The position numbers were made by a program, and so were the translations under genes. Below are positions 9,613-42,666 of a DNA stretch of 64,000 nucleotides, in pieces. Source of the stretch: Escherichia coli. GTDB taxonomy: Bacteria > Pseudomonadota > Gammaproteobacteria > Enterobacterales > Enterobacteriaceae. Under the pieces are notes generated by a model, which was not told the DNA's origin, made no database searches, and worked only from the letters and a program-made list of their open reading frames with translations. How positions within the stretch are numbered: position 1 is the stretch's first letter; every line of letters starts with the position of its first letter. Location: NCBI RefSeq assembly GCF_001677475.2, contig NZ_CP015229.1. One strand, 5' to 3'.

Positions 9613-9709
9613 ACAACGCCGAAGCTGTTTTGGCGGATGAGAGAAGATTTTCAGCCTGATACAGATTAAATCGACAGGTCAGAACATGACGTGTTGATAA
9701 AACAGAATT

Positions 9710-9829
9710 TGCCTGGCGGCCGTAGCGCGGTGGTCCCACCTGACCCCATGCCGAACTCAGAAGTGAAACGCCGTAGCGCCGATGGTAGTGTGGGGTCTCC
9801 CCATGCGAGAGTAGGGAACTGCCAGGCAT
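9710..9829 (+). rRNA. rrfE: 5S ribosomal RNA (rrnE operon)
   Basis: tgcctggcggccgtagcgcggtgg...gggaactgccaggcat; 120 nt. Confidence 0.97.
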
Positions 9830-9831
9830 CA

Positions 9832-9878
9832 AATAAAACGAAAGGCTCAGTCGAAAGACTGGGCCTTTCGTTTTATCT
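9832..9878 (+). terminator. rrn terminator T1
   Basis: aaaacgaaaggctcagtcgaaagactgggcctttcgttttat hairpin followed by a T-run. Confidence 0.85.
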
Positions 9879-24006: not shown

Positions 24007-25638
24007 GTGTTAACGCTGCTTCACCTGCTTTCTGCCGTCGCCCTGCTGGTCTGGGGGACTCATATTGTTCGAACCGGCGTAATGCGCGTCTTCGGCGCGC
24101 GTTTGCGTACTGTCCTTAGCCGGAGCGTCGAAAAAAAGCCGCTCGCCTTTTGCGCGGGGATCGGCGTTACCGCACTGGTGCAGAGCAGTAATGCCACCAC
24201 CATGCTGGTGACCTCGTTCGTCGCTCAGGATCTGGTAGCCCTCGCACCGGCTCTGGTGATTGTGCTGGGTGCAGATGTCGGGACGGCGCTAATGGCGCGT
24301 ATTCTCACCTTCGACTTATCCTGGCTGTCACCATTACTTATTTTTATCGGCGTGATTTTTTTCCTCGGACGCAAACAGTCACGCGCCGGGCAACTGGGCC
24401 GCGTCGGTATTGGTCTTGGGCTGATTTTACTGGCGCTGGAGTTGATTGTGCAGGCCGTAACGCCGATCACTCAGGCAAACGGCGTTCAGGTGATCTTTGC
24501 CTCGCTGACTGGCGACATTTTGCTGGATGCGCTGATTGGTGCGATGTTCGCCATTATCAGCTACTCCAGCCTTGCTGCTGTACTGCTGACCGCGACTTTG
24601 ACCGCCGCAGGCATTATCTCTTTCCCAGTGGCGCTTTGTCTGGTGATTGGGGCAAACCTCGGTTCCGGCCTGCTGGCGATGCTCAACAACAGTGCCGCCA
24701 ATGCCGCAGCCCGCCGTGTCGCGCTGGGTAGTCTGCTGTTTAAGCTGGTGGGTAGCCTGATTATCCTGCCGTTTGTCCATTTGCTGGCAGAGACAATGGG
24801 GAAGTTGTCATTGCCAAAAGCGGAACTGGTGATCTATTTCCACGTCTTCTACAACCTTGTACGTTGCCTGGTCATGCTGCCATTTGTTGACCCGATGGCA
24901 CGGTTTTGCAAAACGATTATTCGCGATGAACCGGAACTGGATACCCAGCTACGGCCTAAACATCTGGATGTCAGCGCGCTGGATACGCCCACGCTTGCTC
25001 TGGCGAACGCCGCGCGCGAAACCCTGCGCATTGGCGACGCCATGGAACAGATGATGGAAGGGTTGAATAAAGTGATGCACGGCGAGCCACGGCAGGAGAA
25101 AGAGCTGCGTAAGCTGGCAGATGATATCAACGTTCTCTATACCGCCATTAAGCTGTATCTGGCGCGGATGCCAAAAGAAGAGCTGGCGGAGGAAGAGTCG
25201 CGCCGCTGGGCGGAGATCATCGAAATGTCGCTCAACCTTGAACAGGCCTCCGATATCGTCGAGCGCATGGGGAGTGAAATTGCCGACAAATCACTGGCAG
25301 CACGGCGGGCATTTTCGCTTGATGGGTTGAAGGAACTGGATGCGCTCTATGAGCAATTGCTCAGTAATTTAAAGCTGGCAATGTCGGTGTTCTTCTCTGG
25401 CGATGTCACCAGCGCTCGTCGTTTGCGCCGCAGCAAGCATCGCTTTCGCATTCTTAATCGCCGCTATTCCCACGCCCACGTCGATCGCCTGCATCAGCAA
25501 AACGTGCAAAGCATTGAAACCAGTTCGCTACATTTAGGCTTACTGGGAGATATGCAGCGTCTGAACTCGCTGTTTTGTTCGGTGGCTTACAGTGTGCTGG
25601 AACAGCCGGATGAAGATGAAGGACGGGACGAGTATTAA
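24007..25638 (+). CDS. yjbB: Na+/phosphate cotransporter family protein YjbB
   Basis: 543-aa ORF with GTG start; multi-pass membrane N-terminus plus PhoU-like C-terminal region. Confidence 0.88.
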   Translation: MLTLLHLLSAVALLVWGTHIVRTGVMRVFGARLRTVLSRSVEKKPLAFCAGIGVTALVQSSNATTMLVTSFVAQDLVALAPALVIVLGADVGTALMARILTFDLSWLSPLLIFIGVIFFLGRKQSRAGQLGRVGIGLGLILLALELIVQAVTPITQANGVQVIFASLTGDILLDALIGAMFAIISYSSLAAVLLTATLTAAGIISFPVALCLVIGANLGSGLLAMLNNSAANAAARRVALGSLLFKLVGSLIILPFVHLLAETMGKLSLPKAELVIYFHVFYNLVRCLVMLPFVDPMARFCKTIIRDEPELDTQLRPKHLDVSALDTPTLALANAARETLRIGDAMEQMMEGLNKVMHGEPRQEKELRKLADDINVLYTAIKLYLARMPKEELAEEESRRWAEIIEMSLNLEQASDIVERMGSEIADKSLAARRAFSLDGLKELDALYEQLLSNLKLAMSVFFSGDVTSARRLRRSKHRFRILNRRYSHAHVDRLHQQNVQSIETSSLHLGLLGDMQRLNSLFCSVAYSVLEQPDEDEGRDEY

Positions 25639-25651
25639 TATTGTGAATCCT

Positions 25652-25725
25652 GTAGGCCTGATAAGACGCGTCAAGCGTCGCATCAGGCACTATGAACAAG
25701 ATGCCGGATCATGCATCCGGCAATT
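25652..25725. repeat. REP element plus perfect hairpin between convergent yjbB and pepE
   Basis: taggcctgataagacgcgtcaagcgtcgcatcaggc (REP) and gccggatcatgcatccggc (palindrome). Confidence 0.7.
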
Positions 25726-25728
25726 CAC

Positions 25729-26418
25729 TTAAAAACGGTGACCTGCTTCCAGCGGCACCGCTTCTTCACCAGCTTTAAACACATAAGTGGTGTTCGGGCC
25801 ACCCAGCGTAGCGTGACCTTTACTCACCGTGATCCAGTTACCTTCCGGTAGACCAATAATTGTGAGTTCTGGCGCGACGACCAGCAGTTCGCGAATACGC
25901 TGCTCACGGGTTTCACCTTTATGGCCTTCCGGCAGCGCGTTGGTGAAGTGCGGGTTGATTTGCAGCGGGAACAGATTCAGCGCATCGAAACCTTGCGGAT
26001 CGACAATCGGCATATCGTTGGTGGTACGAATGGTTGGGCAAGCAAGGTTAGCGCCTGCGCTCCAGCCAACATACAGCGCGCCACGTTTAACCACGTCAGT
26101 AATTGGTGCCAGCAGCCCGCGCTCGCGGCACTGTTTCAGCAACTGGAAAGTATTACCGCCGCCGACAATCACGATCTCAGCATTTTCAATCGCGGCAACG
26201 GGATCGACAACGCTATGAATACCGGTGACAGAAACACCCAGCGGAGCGAGAACCGCAGCCGTTTTCGCTGTGTAATCATCCCAGGTCTGCGTTACGCCCG
26301 CGAAAGGAATAAATACCGCTGAACGGCGACCCTGCAACTGTTCAGCAATTAGCGGCAGTGCATGTTCCAGCCAGGCTTTACCCGGCAGCGTCGAGTTACT
26401 CAATAAAAGCAGTTCCAT
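25729..26418 (-). CDS. pepE: Peptidase E (alpha-aspartyl dipeptidase)
   Basis: 229-aa ORF recognised as PepE. Confidence 0.93.
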
Positions 26419-26540
26419 TACTTCTCCGGTTAGTAAGAAATCACGGAAGGAATGCTACCACTGCGAATTTAACCACTTACTGACATGGCTCACGATGTCA
26501 CGTATTGCACCGGGCGCTGAGACTGATGACAAACACAGCA

Positions 26541-26642
26541 TTGCCTGATGCGCTACGCTTACCAGGCCTACCAGATAACTGCAATATATTGAATTTTCGA
26601 GATTATGTATGCCGAATAAGGCTTCATTCCGCATCCGGCATA
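26541..26642. repeat. Pair of REP elements (BIME-like) in the pepE-sorE junction
   Basis: ttgcctgatgcgctacgcttaccaggcctac and atgccgaataaggcttcattccgcatccggcat, both REP-type palindromic units. Confidence 0.7.
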
Positions 26643-26799
26643 AACAATGTGCACTTTGCCACCAATTTGAGCGCCCCTTAAGGCGCTGATGTTTTTTATC
26701 CTTCTCGTGCAAATTGTGCTGCTTCAGCAATCAGCCGCACATCAGGTCGCGAAGTTGCCGCGGCGACCAGCCAGCGACATGCAGAGTTAAGTAGCGCGA

Positions 26800-28029
26800 T
26801 TAATCATGGGAAATTGCCTCTGCATGGGCGAGCAGGTATTGCTCCGCCTCACCGGACCAGATCCCCTGATGACGCGCCAGAATCGCCGCCAGTGCTTGAT
26901 CCTGAATCTGCGTGAGTGACGTCAGCGGCAGGTATTTCCCGGTATACACCAGCTTTTTGCCGCCGCCGACGGCAGGCAATTCAAGCGTGGTTTCGCCCGC
27001 GGCATTCAGCCCAAGAATATGTGTTACCACTTTTGCGGCCTGCACTTTTTTCTCTTCAATCAATTTGACCGCTGCGCGCATGTCGTCGGTATTGCCGCCT
27101 GACGTGCCCACGTAGTGGGTAAATGCATAATGCACATCGTAGAAATTAATTGGCGCGCTGAAATGTTTATCCTGCGGTCCGGCGAAGAAATTCAGGCAAC
27201 CATCCGTCGCCAGCAAGGAAGAGGCGAGAGTCACCAGTCCTTCATTAGGCACAAAGACGAAAATATCATCGAAGCCGTGACCGCCACTCAGCGCCATTAA
27301 CGTATCAAATGCTGCATCGGTGGCATTGAGATAATGAATCAGTGTTTGCGGTTCTGATGGATAGTGCTTCCGCGCATAACTCAATTTATCGTTGTCGGTA
27401 TCGGTAATGACGAGCAGCGACGGGTTAACGGGTCCATGTAGCGCATAATCAATCGCCAACAGTCCCATTGGTCCGGTGCCGCCGAGGATCAGCGTGCGCC
27501 CTTGCGGGCGAATCCCCATCGTGTGGTTATAACTACCTTCCTGAAGATGATAGTTGGCGTTGAACGCGCCAATCACGCAGGAAAGCGGTTCAACCAGCGA
27601 GCCTTCAAAATAGGTTTCGCCGTCGTATGCCAGCAGGCAATCTTGTTCCATGACCTCGTTGGGAATAACTACATGCGTGGCTTCGCCGCCTACCCACGGG
27701 AAGGAGTAGCCGGGGCAGTCCGGGCGGTCGGGGAGTTGCAGGTTGGCCTGAATCACATAACGCTGACCCGGCTGGAATTTGTGCTGCCACTTTTTACCCA
27801 CGGCCAGAATATCGCCGCAAAACTCGTGGCCGATGATGATTGGGTTGGTCGCCACATCGTCGGGTACTTTTTTATGGTTTTCACCCAGATTGGCCTCTTT
27901 CCAGGAAGAGAGGCACAGGCTGTCAGTGACCACCGTCGCGAGGATTTCATCCTCCTGCATTTCAGGAAGATCAAAGGTTTCCAGGCGTAAATCACGTTTA
28001 CCATAAAGACGCAGAGCTGTTGTTTTCAT
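26800..28029 (-). CDS. sorE: L-sorbose-1-phosphate reductase (zinc-dependent alcohol dehydrogenase family)
   Basis: ORF 26800..28041; start set at second ATG (MKTTALRLYG), which has a GAGGTG Shine-Dalgarno; last gene of sor operon. Confidence 0.85.
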   Translation of the reverse strand: MKTTALRLYGKRDLRLETFDLPEMQEDEILATVVTDSLCLSSWKEANLGENHKKVPDDVATNPIIIGHEFCGDILAVGKKWQHKFQPGQRYVIQANLQLPDRPDCPGYSFPWVGGEATHVVIPNEVMEQDCLLAYDGETYFEGSLVEPLSCVIGAFNANYHLQEGSYNHTMGIRPQGRTLILGGTGPMGLLAIDYALHGPVNPSLLVITDTDNDKLSYARKHYPSEPQTLIHYLNATDAAFDTLMALSGGHGFDDIFVFVPNEGLVTLASSLLATDGCLNFFAGPQDKHFSAPINFYDVHYAFTHYVGTSGGNTDDMRAAVKLIEEKKVQAAKVVTHILGLNAAGETTLELPAVGGGKKLVYTGKYLPLTSLTQIQDQALAAILARHQGIWSGEAEQYLLAHAEAISHD

Positions 28030-28080
28030 AAACCACCTCATGTTGAGCTATGGCCCCGGCAGTCGTGCCGGGGCGAAGAA

Positions 28081-32543: not shown

Positions 32544-32860
32544 AATACGCTTTCTCACCGCTTGATCTGATATAACCCCATCATGATGGCCTTTCAAAGC
32601 GATTTTTCACTCTTTGCATGGGGAGAAATAGCGCTTTCTCTTGCACATTTGTTTCTCTGCGTAGTAGTCATCAGCACAGGTGTGCAGCGATTCGTAATAT
32701 GTTGATTATCTTTATTTTGCCAGGCAAATTTGCATCGTACTTCCGGAGACACTTTTGTGATAAAAGGCGTGGCAGATCACATTTAATTTCGACGTTGCCG
32801 CATAACCCTGTTTTTCCCCGCTAAGAGGTACGGTATATTCCGCGTTTTACAGGAGAATTT

Positions 32861-33733
32861 ATGCTGCCCGACTCATCAGTCCGTTTAAATAAATACATCA
32901 GCGAAAGCGGAATTTGCTCACGCCGCGAAGCGGATCGCTATATCGAGCAAGGCAATGTGTTCCTTAATGGCAAGCGAGCCACCATTGGCGATCAGGTGAA
33001 ACCCGGCGACGTTGTGAAAGTAAACGGTCAGTTGATTGAGCCTCGGGAAGCCGAAGATTTGGTACTTATCGCCCTGAACAAGCCCGTCGGTATTGTCAGC
33101 ACCACCGAAGATGGCGAGCGCGATAACATTGTCGATTTCGTTAACCACAGCAAACGCGTGTTCCCGATTGGCCGCCTGGATAAAGACTCCCAGGGGCTGA
33201 TTTTCCTCACCAATCACGGCGATCTGGTGAATAAGATCCTCCGTGCGGGTAACGATCATGAGAAAGAGTATCTGGTGACGGTCGATAAACCGATTACCGA
33301 TGAATTTATTCGTGGTATGGGGGCGGGGGTGCCAATCCTCGGGACAGTGACTAAAAAGTGTAAAGTCAAAAAAGAAGCGCCGTTTGTCTTCCGCATTACC
33401 CTGGTGCAGGGGCTGAACCGTCAGATCCGTCGCATGTGCGAACACTTTGGTTACGAAGTGAAAAAGCTGGAACGTACGCGCATTATGAACGTCAGTTTAA
33501 GCGGCATTCCACTGGGTGAGTGGCGCGATTTAACTGACGATGAGTTAATCGACCTGTTTAAACTCATCGAAAATTCCTCTTCCGAGGCAAAACCTAAAGC
33601 GAAGGCCAAGCCGAAAACGGTAGGCATCAAACGTCCAGTCGTTAAGATGGAAAAAACGGCGGAAAAAGGCGGTCGCCCGGCAACCAACGGTAAGCGTTTT
33701 ACCTCGCCGGGGCGTAAAAAGAAGGGGCGCTGA
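32861..33733 (+). CDS. rluF: 23S rRNA pseudouridine synthase F
   Basis: 290-aa ORF with S4 domain and RluA/RsuA-type catalytic region (RLDKDSQGL); lysine-rich C-terminal tail. Confidence 0.92.
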
Positions 33734-42592: not shown

Positions 42593-42666
42593 GCCGGATG
42601 CGCCGCCAGGCGCGGCTTATCCGGCCTACGGGTAGGACGGATAAGGCGTTCACGCCGCATCCGGCG
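42593..42666. repeat. Tandem REP elements (BIME)
   Basis: gccggatgcgccgccaggcgcggcttatccggcctac followed by ggtaggacggataaggcgttcacgccgcatccggcg. Confidence 0.8.

What the first reader, a model, noticed from the sequence alone, without database searches (positions are those of the whole stretch)
26520..26650. REP/BIME pair at the pepE-side boundary of the sor island
Two REP-type palindromic units lie in the 380-bp junction between pepE and sorE. REP clusters often mark indel boundaries between E. coli strains, and this may be the scar or recombination site associated with presence or absence of the sor block. The 91-codon ORF across them (26455..26730) is probably not real.
Basis: partly seen in the sequence, partly recalled or inferred. 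Interest (0 to 1): 0.25.

Follow-up and report, generated by a model that had tools for sequence, protein, structure and literature searches.

The report
Ordinary BIME-1 repeat downstream of sor operon
The two palindromes are a real but ordinary copy of a common E. coli intergenic repeat (BIME-1) at the tail of the sorbose operon. It has sat at this site since before E. coli split from its sister species, and it is not the breakpoint of sorbose-gene gain or loss; those genes are ancestral here and were lost in K-12-like strains.

Summary
**Observation confirmed.** Window 26543-26642 holds a BIME-1:
- a y-type REP at 26543-26571, 28/29 to consensus;
- an L linker with the conserved TGCAATATATTGAATTT core and an IHF-like site;
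- a degenerate inverted z-type REP at 26606-26642.

Related copies occur at 40 or more places in every E. coli genome.

**Interpretation only partly holds.**
- sor-minus genomes lack these REPs. Homology to them ends at 26508-26515, which is 28-35 bp outside REP1. There is no REP at the rluF-side break (32804-32826).
- The "island" is not an insertion. The order rluF-sorCDFBAME-sdhL-pepE is conserved in at least four other Escherichia species and in Klebsiella, Raoultella, Citrobacter, Pseudocitrobacter and Enterobacter. K-12 therefore represents a loss.
- The BIME lies between a conserved operon-end hairpin and the pepE promoter. It is downstream of a decayed eighth gene, sdhL (remnant 26696-26807).
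- The BIME is orthologous across Escherichia. It is amplified about fourfold in E. albertii, deleted in 176 phylogroup-F-like genomes, and inverted in Pseudocitrobacter.
- A sor-minus sister species carries a ccdA pseudogene at this spot.

The 91-codon ORF is spurious. The likely function, not tested here, is 3'-end stabiliser and partial terminator between sor and pepE, plus an IHF site. Interest is low.

The parts
25729..26418 (-). pepE (dipeptidase E), co-oriented with and downstream of the sor operon
   Evidence: ORF. Annotated pepE in orthologous loci.
26419..26508 (-). pepE 5' region and promoter, shared by sor+ and sor- genomes. It contains the motif CGTGAGCCATGTCAG (26494..26480), conserved across genera and resembling a weak CRP site.
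   Evidence: All 5,424 genomes with a match cover at least nt 1-81/90 of the spacer. Alignments. Motif conserved in the sequences. CRP-like with 3 mismatches; the CRP reading is an inference.
26508..26515 (.). Left limit of homology between the window and sor-minus (K-12-like) genomes
   Evidence: Against the sor-minus Escherichia sp. E1V33 spacer, K-12-like genomes match nt 1-100, SMS-3-5-like 1-96 and window-like 1-90.
26512..26533 (.). Outer arm of a 22-nt inverted repeat that brackets the BIME (GGGCGCTGAGACTGATGACAAA)
   Evidence: Inverted repeat I1, 77% complementary. It pairs in the 201-nt fold. It is locus-specific and not shared with unrelated BIME-1 copies.
26543..26571 (+). REP1, y-type palindromic unit with CTAC at 26568-26571
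   Evidence: 28/29 to consensus. Invariant columns in alignment A1. Hairpin of -12.3 kcal/mol.
26572..26605 (.). L linker of the BIME-1, with core TGCAATATATTGAATTT at 26580-26596 and an IHF-consensus-like site ATTCAATATATTG at 26594..26582 on the - strand
   Evidence: Exact motif match. One mismatch to WATCAANNNNTTR. Conserved in A1. The L linker and its IHF site are described in PMC3333891.
26606..26642 (-). REP2, a degenerate z-type palindromic unit. The foot tetranucleotide is GTAT here (GTAG in Sakai and JNEC-KY178), and the loop is shortened.
   Evidence: Hairpin of -16.3 kcal/mol against -21.3 for the canonical orthologue.
26655..26676 (.). Inner arm of the 22-nt inverted repeat (TTTGCCACCAATTTGAGCGCCC). 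It overlaps the 3' arm of the operon-end hairpin.
26670..26687 (-). Hairpin that follows the sdhL stop codon (AGCGCC-loop-GGCGCT). It is conserved in Kluyvera, Citrobacter, Klebsiella, Raoultella and Pseudocitrobacter. On the + strand it reads as a terminator with a T-run.
   Evidence: Terminator scan. Orthologous sequences. Fold of -11.4 kcal/mol, z = -4.4.
26696..26807 (-). Remnant of sdhL, a shikimate-dehydrogenase-like eighth gene of the operon. Nt 1-58 and 760-813 are retained, 701 bp are deleted, and there is a TAA at codon 7.
   Evidence: Pfam Shikimate_dh_N and Shikimate_DH on the intact SMS-3-5 gene. Intact in 177 of 5,426 genomes.
26800..28041 (-). sorE (L-sorbose-1-phosphate reductase), the last intact gene of sorCDFBAME, which runs to 32597
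26455..26730 (-). Mechanical 91-codon ORF, not a gene
   Evidence: No Pfam hit. It reads across both REPs, the hairpin and the pepE promoter. Truncated to 17 codons in Sakai. No annotated feature under the spacer match in the 30 genomes listed.
32804..32826 (.). Right limit of homology to sor-minus genomes, 35-57 bp upstream of rluF. No REP lies here.

Best explanation
The feature is a single BIME-1 (also called RIP or RIB): a y REP, the conserved long L linker with an IHF-type site, and an inverted z REP that has started to decay in this lineage.

It lies in the 3' untranslated tail of the sorbose operon. On the operon strand the order is: sorE, the sdhL remnant, a conserved hairpin, the z REP, L, the y REP, the pepE promoter, then pepE.

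It is an old, vertically inherited resident of the sor-plus haplotype of the genus Escherichia. It is not the junction of a gained or lost island.

The sor operon plus sdhL is the ancestral content of the rluF-pepE interval in Enterobacteriaceae. K-12-like E. coli have lost it.

The short stretch between the operon-end hairpin and the pepE promoter is an unconstrained spacer in which different lineages carry different passengers:
- a BIME, in one or four copies, in either orientation, or deleted;
- a ccdAB module or another toxin-antitoxin pair;
- decayed remnants of these.

The window and K-12 stop aligning at 26508-26515 because that is where the constrained pepE promoter ends and this variable spacer begins.

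Inferred function, not tested here: once transcribed from the sor promoter, the REP hairpins block 3'-to-5' exonucleases and so stabilise sor mRNA. They also attenuate read-through into the co-oriented pepE, partly through Rho. As DNA, the L linker can bind IHF.
For: **Identity as a BIME-1**
- Alignment with unrelated BIME-1 copies shows the shared part is exactly y-L-z.
- At least 40 related places occur per genome in 5425 of 5426 genomes.
- The definition is taken from PMC3333891.

**Position**
- SMS-3-5 and JNEC-KY178 carry an intact 813-bp sdhL overlapping the sorE stop.
- The window keeps only nt 1-58 and 760-813 of it.

**Age**
- The same z-L-y element, with the same flanks, lies between sdhL and pepE in Escherichia sp. 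MOD1-EC7003, E. whittamii, the 'E. coli' SCPM-O-B-8794 species cluster and E. albertii.

**Ancestral sor**
- The order rluF-sorC..sorE-sdhL-pepE-yjbB is found in more than 25 species of seven genera.

**BIME loss in clade F is derived**
- SMS-3-5-like genomes (176) lack the BIME and also the 3' arm of the hairpin that all genera conserve.
- This fits the report that clade F strains SMS-3-5 and IAI39 are REP-poor (PMC3333891).

**Variable spacer**
- CcdA/CcdB modules occur in Citrobacter Cu233 and P. vendiensis, and a Gp49/HTH_37 pair in Citrobacter FP75.
- There is a ccdA pseudogene in sor-minus Escherichia sp. E1V33.
- E. albertii has a 3.9 x 147-bp array.
- The P. faecalis element is inverted: 117/145 identical to the window + strand, score 83 against 24 for the other orientation.

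**Function by analogy**
- REPs act as stabilisers and partly Rho-dependent attenuators in tandem gene pairs (bioRxiv 10.64898/2026.03.23.713779; PMC6061677).
- sdhL is induced by sorbose in ST648, so transcription does reach this tail (PMC12817954).
Against: - No expression, 3'-end or IHF-binding data were available, so the functional part is analogy only.
- REP2 is weakened here (-16.3 against -21.3 kcal/mol, GTAG changed to GTAT). The element may be decaying along with sdhL and have little function left.
- The homology break touches the outer arm of the inverted repeat that brackets the BIME. A role of the BIME region in the rearrangement that separated the two haplotypes cannot be excluded.
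- The origin of the roughly 80-bp K-12-only filler is unresolved. Its similarity to ccdA is not significant: 91 of 1000 shuffles score as well.
- Conserved synteny across genera could in principle also arise by repeated homologous replacement. Pseudocitrobacter sor proteins are 95-96% identical to E. coli's, but PepE is only 85-86%.
Confidence: 0.8

Rival explanations
1. One reading: the REP pair is the recombination site or scar through which the sor block was inserted or deleted between E. coli strains.
For: - The homology break (26508-26515) is only 28-35 bp from REP1 and coincides with the outer inverted-repeat arm.
- The REPs are absent from all sor-minus alleles seen.
- The BIME region is demonstrably rearrangement-prone: deleted in 176 genomes, amplified in E. 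albertii, inverted in Pseudocitrobacter.
Against: - The break is not inside a REP.
- There is no REP or REP fragment in the 211-bp K-12 spacer or at the rluF-side break.
- sor is ancestral at this locus.
- Sor-minus Escherichia sp. E1V33 carries a ccdA pseudogene right after the shared pepE promoter. Its deletion therefore started from a ccdAB-bearing spacer, not a BIME-bearing one.
- K-12, E1V33 and other genera share the motif TTCTGGAAAG, which BIME-bearing alleles have lost.
Confidence: 0.12
2. The BIME is a recent mobile insertion into the sor-plus spacer of E. coli, and the BIME-free SMS-3-5 allele is the ancestral empty site.
For: - The SMS-3-5 spacer is 122 bp, against 265 bp in JNEC-KY178, and it has an intact sdhL.
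- BIMEs are thought to be mobilised by TnpA-REP (PMC3333891).
Against: - The BIME is at the identical site with the same flanks in four other Escherichia species.
- SMS-3-5 lacks the 3' arm of the hairpin conserved in all genera, yet it keeps GTTTGCCA, which matches the y-side flank of the BIME.
- Both points mean the SMS-3-5 allele is a deletion product.
Confidence: 0.05
3. The hairpin plus T-run at 26670-26697 on the + strand is a functional terminator for an antisense or divergent transcript, and the REPs belong to that + strand unit or encode a small RNA.
For: - The pattern scan calls a + strand terminator.
- The fold is -11.2 kcal/mol.
Against: - No promoter-like site was found in 26300-26900 on either strand.
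- The hairpin is conserved in other genera as the structure after the sdhL stop, and the A-run is simply the sequence after the TAA.
- Rfam gives nothing above threshold; the best match is ES036 at E = 0.61.
Confidence: 0.05

Closest known systems
BIME-1 (RIP / RIB elements) of E. coli
   Same: - y and z REPs in inverse orientation, tail to tail.
- Conserved long L linker with the TGCAATATATTGAATTT core and an IHF-type site.
- Single copy, extragenic, at the end of an operon (definition in PMC3333891).
   Different: - The z REP is degenerate in this lineage: loop shortened and foot GTAG changed to GTAT.
- The element is bracketed by a locus-specific 22-nt inverted repeat that includes one arm of the operon-end hairpin.
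- The orthologue in E. albertii is a fourfold tandem array, whereas BIME-1 is described as single-copy.
REP325 in the yjdM-yjdN pair, and the classical malE-malF and hisJ-hisQ REPs
   Same: REPs lie between two co-oriented genes, where they stabilise the upstream message and attenuate transcription into the downstream gene (PMC6061677 and references there).
   Different: - Here the downstream gene pepE has its own promoter and is not part of the operon.
- No expression data exist for this copy.
yafL-fhiA REPtron locus, where hicAB replaces tnpA-REP and its BIMEs in clade B1
   Same: One intergenic site is occupied by BIMEs in some lineages and by a toxin-antitoxin pair in others (PMC3333891). 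Here the alternation is BIME against ccdAB or Gp49/HTH_37.
   Different: - There is no tnpA-REP gene at this locus.
- The alternation is seen between species and genera as well as within E. coli.
sor operon (sorCDFBAME) of Klebsiella pneumoniae and E. coli, and sdhL of ST648
   Same: Same genes and order. sdhL directly follows sorE and is sorbose-induced in ST648 (PMC12817954).
   Different: That paper treats sdhL as an ST648-specific insertion. Here sdhL is shown to be ancestral across genera and internally deleted in about 2,680 of the 2,865 sor-plus complete genomes.

Membership tests
BIME-1 (RIP/RIB) | Two REPs in inverse orientation, one y-type and one z-type | tested here: met
   - y: 28/29 to consensus at 26543-26571 (+).
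- z head and tail: 2 mismatches each at 26607-26639 (-).
- The canonical z is present in the orthologues JNEC-KY178, MOD1-EC7003 and E. whittamii.
BIME-1 (RIP/RIB) | The z unit is z1 rather than z2 | tested here: inconclusive
   The loop that separates z1 from z2 is mutated and shortened in the window. I had no verified z1 and z2 consensus sequences to score the orthologues against.
BIME-1 (RIP/RIB) | Long, conserved L linker that carries an IHF consensus | tested here: met
   - 34-nt linker with an exact TGCAATATATTGAATTT.
- ATTCAATATATTG has 1 mismatch to WATCAANNNNTTR.
- Linker columns are conserved with the window 56297-56395 and mtlA-mtlD copies.
BIME-1 (RIP/RIB) | GTAG/CTAC tetranucleotide at the foot of each REP | tested here: inconclusive
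   REP1 has CTAC at 26568-26571. REP2 has GTAT at 26606-26609 in the window, but GTAG in Sakai, JNEC-KY178 and the other Escherichia species.
BIME-1 (RIP/RIB) | Single copy per locus, extragenic, member of a dispersed family | tested here: met
   - One copy lies in the 381-bp spacer.
- At least 40 related places occur per genome.
- Exception: the E. albertii orthologue is a 3.9-copy array.
BIME-1 (RIP/RIB) | Binds IHF | not testable with these tools
   Only the consensus match could be checked.
Repeat-mediated island junction or indel scar | The presence/absence breakpoint falls inside the repeat | tested here: not met
   The break is at 26508-26515, and REP1 starts at 26543.
Repeat-mediated island junction or indel scar | A copy or fragment of the repeat is present at the other junction or in the empty allele | tested here: not met
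   No REP motif was found at 32598-32860 or in the 211-bp K-12 spacer.
Horizontally acquired genomic island | The block is absent from this locus in related species | tested here: not met
   rluF-sor-sdhL-pepE synteny holds in Escherichia spp., Klebsiella, Raoultella, Citrobacter, Pseudocitrobacter and Enterobacter.
Intrinsic terminator of the sor operon | GC-rich hairpin followed by a U-tract on the operon (-) strand | tested here: not met
   The hairpin is present and conserved. On the - strand it is followed by CAAAUUGG. The T-run is on the + strand only.

The most novel reading that the evidence does not exclude
This orthologous site may be a natural series that records what a BIME-1 can do in situ. 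The same element, bracketed by a 22-nt inverted repeat that includes one arm of the operon-end hairpin, is:
- single in E. coli;
- amplified as a 147-bp unit about four times in E. albertii;
- removed together with half the hairpin in phylogroup F;
- present in the opposite orientation in Pseudocitrobacter.

If these states are products of one mechanism, the site would give sequence-level junctions for BIME-1 mobility. Candidate mechanisms are TnpA-REP cleavage and strand transfer, or template switching across the quasi-palindrome. BIME-1 has so far been described as a static, single-copy class.
Probability: 0.2. Interest if true: 0.4.

Novelty: already known. Interest (0 to 1): 0.15.

Why it matters
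In itself it matters little: it is one more BIME-1 in an operon tail.

The useful results are corrections to how the locus is read:
1. The sorbose "island" of E. coli is ancestral at rluF-pepE, and K-12 and most phylogroup A and B1 strains lost it.
2. sdhL, recently reported as an ST648-specific insertion, is the ancestral eighth gene. It is a 112-bp wreck in most sor-plus E. coli.
3. A REP cluster next to a strain-specific block is not evidence that it made the breakpoint. Here it only marks the start of an unconstrained spacer.

The site could also serve specialists as a compact comparative case for BIME-1 amplification, loss and inversion.

Tried and rejected
- **K-12 filler as decayed ccdA.** I tested whether the 80-bp K-12-only filler is a decayed ccdA 3' end. 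A 22/28 colinear match to the E1V33 ccdA pseudogene looked promising. It is not significant: 91 of 1000 shuffles score as well, and tblastn gives E = 3.5. I left it unresolved.
- **Intermediate E. coli allele.** I looked for E. coli genomes with an E1V33-like spacer. No place covers 80% or more of it.
- **Rfam.** A scan of 26300-26900 gave nothing near threshold.
- **Promoter scan.** No sigma-70-like site was found in 26300-26900. The CRP-like matches upstream of pepE have 3 mismatches each, so I treat that only as a weak inference.
- **TnpA-REP cleavage at the SMS-3-5 deletion.** I asked whether the deletion junction fits the published CC|T or C|T cleavage sites. The possible junction positions (CCTT^GTTTG or CCT^TGTTTG) do not, so I make no such claim.
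- **Fuzzy regex scan.** A first attempt timed out and was replaced by a Hamming scan.
- **Literature.** A search on sorbose plus pepE gave nothing relevant.

Full report
**What is at the coordinates.**
The window is E. coli DNA with this gene order:
- yjbB, 24007-25638, + strand;
- pepE, 25729-26418, - strand;
- sorE, 26800-28041, - strand;
- the rest of sorCDFBAME, up to 32597, - strand;
- rluF, 32861-33733, + strand.

The pepE-sorE spacer is 381 bp. Within it, GCCTGATGCGCTACGCTTACCAGGCCTAC (26543-26571, + strand) differs at one base from the y-type REP consensus. TGCAATATATTGAATTT (26580-26596) matches the core of the BIME-1 L linker exactly. On the - strand, 26606-26642 carries a z-type REP with 2 mismatches in the head, 2 in the tail and a shortened loop.

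Shuffles of the whole 64-kb window give a mean of 2.3 hits for all four motifs together, whereas five hits fall within these 100 bp. The consensus strings were recalled from memory, so I checked them against real copies. The element aligns over exactly y-L-z with a second BIME-1 in the window (56297-56395) and with the mtlA-mtlD copy found by BLAST. The flanks do not align.

By the published definition, a BIME-1 is a z1 and a y REP in inverse orientation, separated by a well-conserved long L linker that often carries an IHF site, and it occurs as a single copy (PMC3333891). This element fits that definition.

**What lies between the REPs and sorE.**
A search with the whole sor block gave 2,865 genomes with full coverage. 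Some of them start matching only at window 26750. SMS-3-5 is one of these. It has an extra 813-bp gene, annotated as shikimate 5-dehydrogenase, that overlaps the sorE stop and ends 122 bp before pepE. Pfam confirms Shikimate_dh_N and Shikimate_DH domains.

This gene is the sdhL that a recent study found only in ST648 and found to be induced by L-sorbose (PMC12817954). The window keeps only its nt 1-58 (26807..26750) and nt 760-813 (26749..26696). It has a 701-bp internal deletion and a TAA at codon 7. The REP pair is therefore not at the edge of sorE. It lies beyond a dead eighth gene.

Directly after the sdhL stop there is a GC-rich hairpin at 26670-26687. It is conserved after the same stop codon in Kluyvera, Citrobacter, Klebsiella, Raoultella and Pseudocitrobacter. 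The + strand "terminator" reported by the pattern scan is this hairpin read backwards, together with the A-run that follows the stop codon.

**Where the sor-plus / sor-minus difference starts.**
K-12-like genomes have a 211-bp pepE-rluF spacer. It aligns with the window up to 26499 cleanly and up to 26508-26515 with mismatches. It aligns again from 32804-32826, which is 35-57 bp before rluF. In between it holds about 80 bp found in neither end of the sor block.

The left break is therefore 28-35 bp outside REP1. No REP motif is present in the K-12 spacer or at the rluF side.

Counts in 5,426 complete genomes:
- sor block present: 2,872;
- window-like spacer with BIME and deleted sdhL: 2,681;
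- intact sdhL: 177. Of these, 176 are SMS-3-5-like without the BIME and one, JNEC-KY178, has the BIME.

These numbers leave no room for a sizeable class of sor-minus genomes that keep the BIME.

**The block is not an island.**
A scan of one genome per species with PepE, followed by tblastn of the flanks, shows the order rluF-sorC...sorE-sdhL-pepE-yjbB in:
- Escherichia sp. MOD1-EC7003, E. whittamii, E. albertii and the 'E. coli' SCPM-O-B-8794 species cluster;
- Raoultella terrigena, R. ornithinolytica and R. planticola;
- Klebsiella oxytoca, K. michiganensis, K. grimontii and K. spallanzanii;
- several Citrobacter species, Pseudocitrobacter and two Enterobacter isolates.

Kluyvera keeps only a SorC-like regulator plus sdhL.

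The sorbose genes with sdhL are thus the ancestral content of this interval, and the K-12 state is a loss. This agrees with the reported distribution: more than 86% of genomes in most phylogroups, but 9.6% in A and 12.1% in B1 (PMC12817954).

**The BIME is old and the spacer is a dumping ground.**
In MOD1-EC7003, E. whittamii and SCPM-O-B-8794 the same z-L-y element, with the same flanks, lies between the hairpin and the pepE promoter. In E. albertii it forms a tandem array of 3.9 units of 147 bp, each comprising a hairpin copy, the flank and the BIME.

SMS-3-5-like E. coli lack the BIME and also the 3' arm of the conserved hairpin, but they keep a piece of the y-side flank. Their allele is therefore a deletion, not an empty site. 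This fits the report that clade F strains SMS-3-5 and IAI39 are unusually poor in REPs (PMC3333891).

In Pseudocitrobacter faecalis a homologous element with homologous flanks lies at the same place in the opposite orientation. It is 117/145 identical to the window + strand, score 83 against 24 for the other orientation.

Other species carry other passengers in the same spacer:
- ccdA-ccdB in Citrobacter Cu233 and P. vendiensis;
- a Gp49/HTH_37 pair in Citrobacter FP75.

The sor-minus Escherichia sp. E1V33 has a frameshifted ccdA pseudogene immediately after the shared pepE promoter (tblastn E = 3e-19). K-12, E1V33, C. koseri and the ccdAB-bearing genera share the motif TTCTGGAAAG at the end of that promoter region. 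BIME-bearing Escherichia alleles have ACCGGGCG or ACCAGACG instead.

The simplest reading is that sor-minus alleles descend from a ccdAB-bearing spacer by a deletion running from ccdA or ccdB to just before rluF. Under this reading the BIME-bearing haplotype is a separate branch.

I could not show that the K-12 filler is ccdA-derived, because the similarity is not significant. That step remains an inference from E1V33.

**Why the break sits next to the REPs.**
The block shared by all alleles and genera ends with the conserved motif CGTGAGCCATGTCAG (26494..26480), a weak CRP-like site. From memory, pepE was reported to be CRP-dependent in Salmonella; I did not verify this here. Upstream of that motif nothing is constrained until the operon-end hairpin.

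The BIME occupies that gap in this haplotype. Any comparison with a haplotype that has other contents will stop aligning at its edge.

A locus-specific 22-nt inverted repeat (26512-26533 and 26655-26676, 77% complementary) brackets the BIME, and one arm overlaps the hairpin. The whole 201-nt stretch folds at -71.6 kcal/mol, z = -4.4. I cannot say how this repeat arose. Template switching across the quasi-palindrome is one possibility. It is recorded as the novel case.

**Likely function (inferred).**
The sor operon and pepE are co-oriented, and sdhL is sorbose-induced in ST648, so sor transcripts reach this tail. REPs are known to protect upstream mRNA from 3' exonucleases. They are also known to attenuate transcription into a downstream tandem gene, in part through Rho (PMC6061677 and Espeli et al. 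2001, cited there).

Both REPs still fold: -12.3 kcal/mol for REP1 and -16.3 for REP2, against -21.3 for the canonical z REP of JNEC-KY178. I therefore expect a stabiliser and insulator role between sor and pepE, and IHF binding to the linker. No data here test this. The decay of REP2 (GTAG changed to GTAT, loop shortened) may mean the role is weakening.

**The ORF.**
The ORF at 26455..26730 (-) has no Pfam match. It reads through the sdhL tail out of frame, the hairpin, both REPs and the pepE promoter. A single-base T-run difference in Sakai cuts it to 17 codons. Nothing was annotated under the spacer match in any of the 30 genomes listed. It is not a gene.

**Verdict.**
The idea that they are the scar or recombination site of a sor island is not supported. 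The element is a known kind and interest is low.

Noticed in passing
window 26696-26807 (-); intact copies at L004:3246-4058 and L006:1673-2485: Pseudogene remnant of sdhL, a shikimate-dehydrogenase-like eighth gene of the sor operon. It has a 701-bp internal deletion and a nonsense codon 7. The gene is intact in only 177 of 5,426 complete E. coli genomes but is present next to sorE in many genera. The published view of it as an ST648-specific insertion therefore looks inverted.
   Followed up: yes
L009:3602-4177 (E. albertii NBRC 107761): Tandem array of 3.9 units of 147 bp, 93% matches. Each unit is a copy of the operon-end hairpin plus a z-L-y BIME-1. BIME-1 is described in the literature as single-copy.
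   Followed up: partly
L040 about 9690-9870 (Pseudocitrobacter faecalis); L049 (Pseudocitrobacter MAG): A BIME with flanks homologous to the Escherichia element lies at the same site but inverted relative to sdhL and pepE. In the MAG the linker is short, and the BIME replaces ccdB while ccdA remains.
   Followed up: partly
L032 and L038 (ccdAB), L023 (Gp49 + HTH_37 pair), L008:5165-5559 (ccdA pseudogene): Toxin-antitoxin modules or their remnants occupy the same sdhL-pepE or rluF-pepE spacer in Citrobacter, Pseudocitrobacter and a sor-minus Escherichia species. This resembles the BIME / hicAB alternation reported at the yafL-fhiA locus.
   Followed up: partly
L001:2597-2676 (K-12-like pepE-rluF spacer): About 80 bp present only in sor-minus E. 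coli, with no significant similarity to the sor block or to ccdA. Its origin is unresolved.
   Followed up: partly
window 56297-56395: A second complete BIME-1 (y, L linker, z) in the window.
   Followed up: partly
window 25652-25688; 42593-42666; 47548-47673; 51777-51810: Further REP units and clusters. These include a single REP in the 90-bp gap between the convergent 3' ends of yjbB and pepE.
   Followed up: no
L003:10301-16382 (E. coli O157:H7 Sakai): The Mu-like prophage Sp18 is inserted in sorM, so Sakai carries the sor block but with a disrupted PTS component. Locus tag ECs_4940, between pepE and sorE, is absent from the current annotation.
   Followed up: no
L011, L013, L014, L025, L027, L034 (Kluyvera spp.): Between rluF and pepE, Kluyvera has only a SorC-like regulator (67-69% identity) followed by sdhL (85-87%). 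It has no PTS genes, sorD or sorE.
   Followed up: no
L044:9192-10001 (Salmonella enterica subsp. arizonae); L015 and L031: Other sor-minus genera have unrelated small ORFs in the pepE-rluF spacer: 179 aa in S. arizonae, and 81 aa in Pluralibacter and a Klebsiella MAG.
   Followed up: no
table (L038, L040, L049): Pseudocitrobacter SorE, SorM, sdhL and RluF are 95-99% identical to the E. coli proteins, but PepE is only 85-86%. This may indicate exchange of the rluF-sor-sdhL segment between the genera.
   Followed up: no
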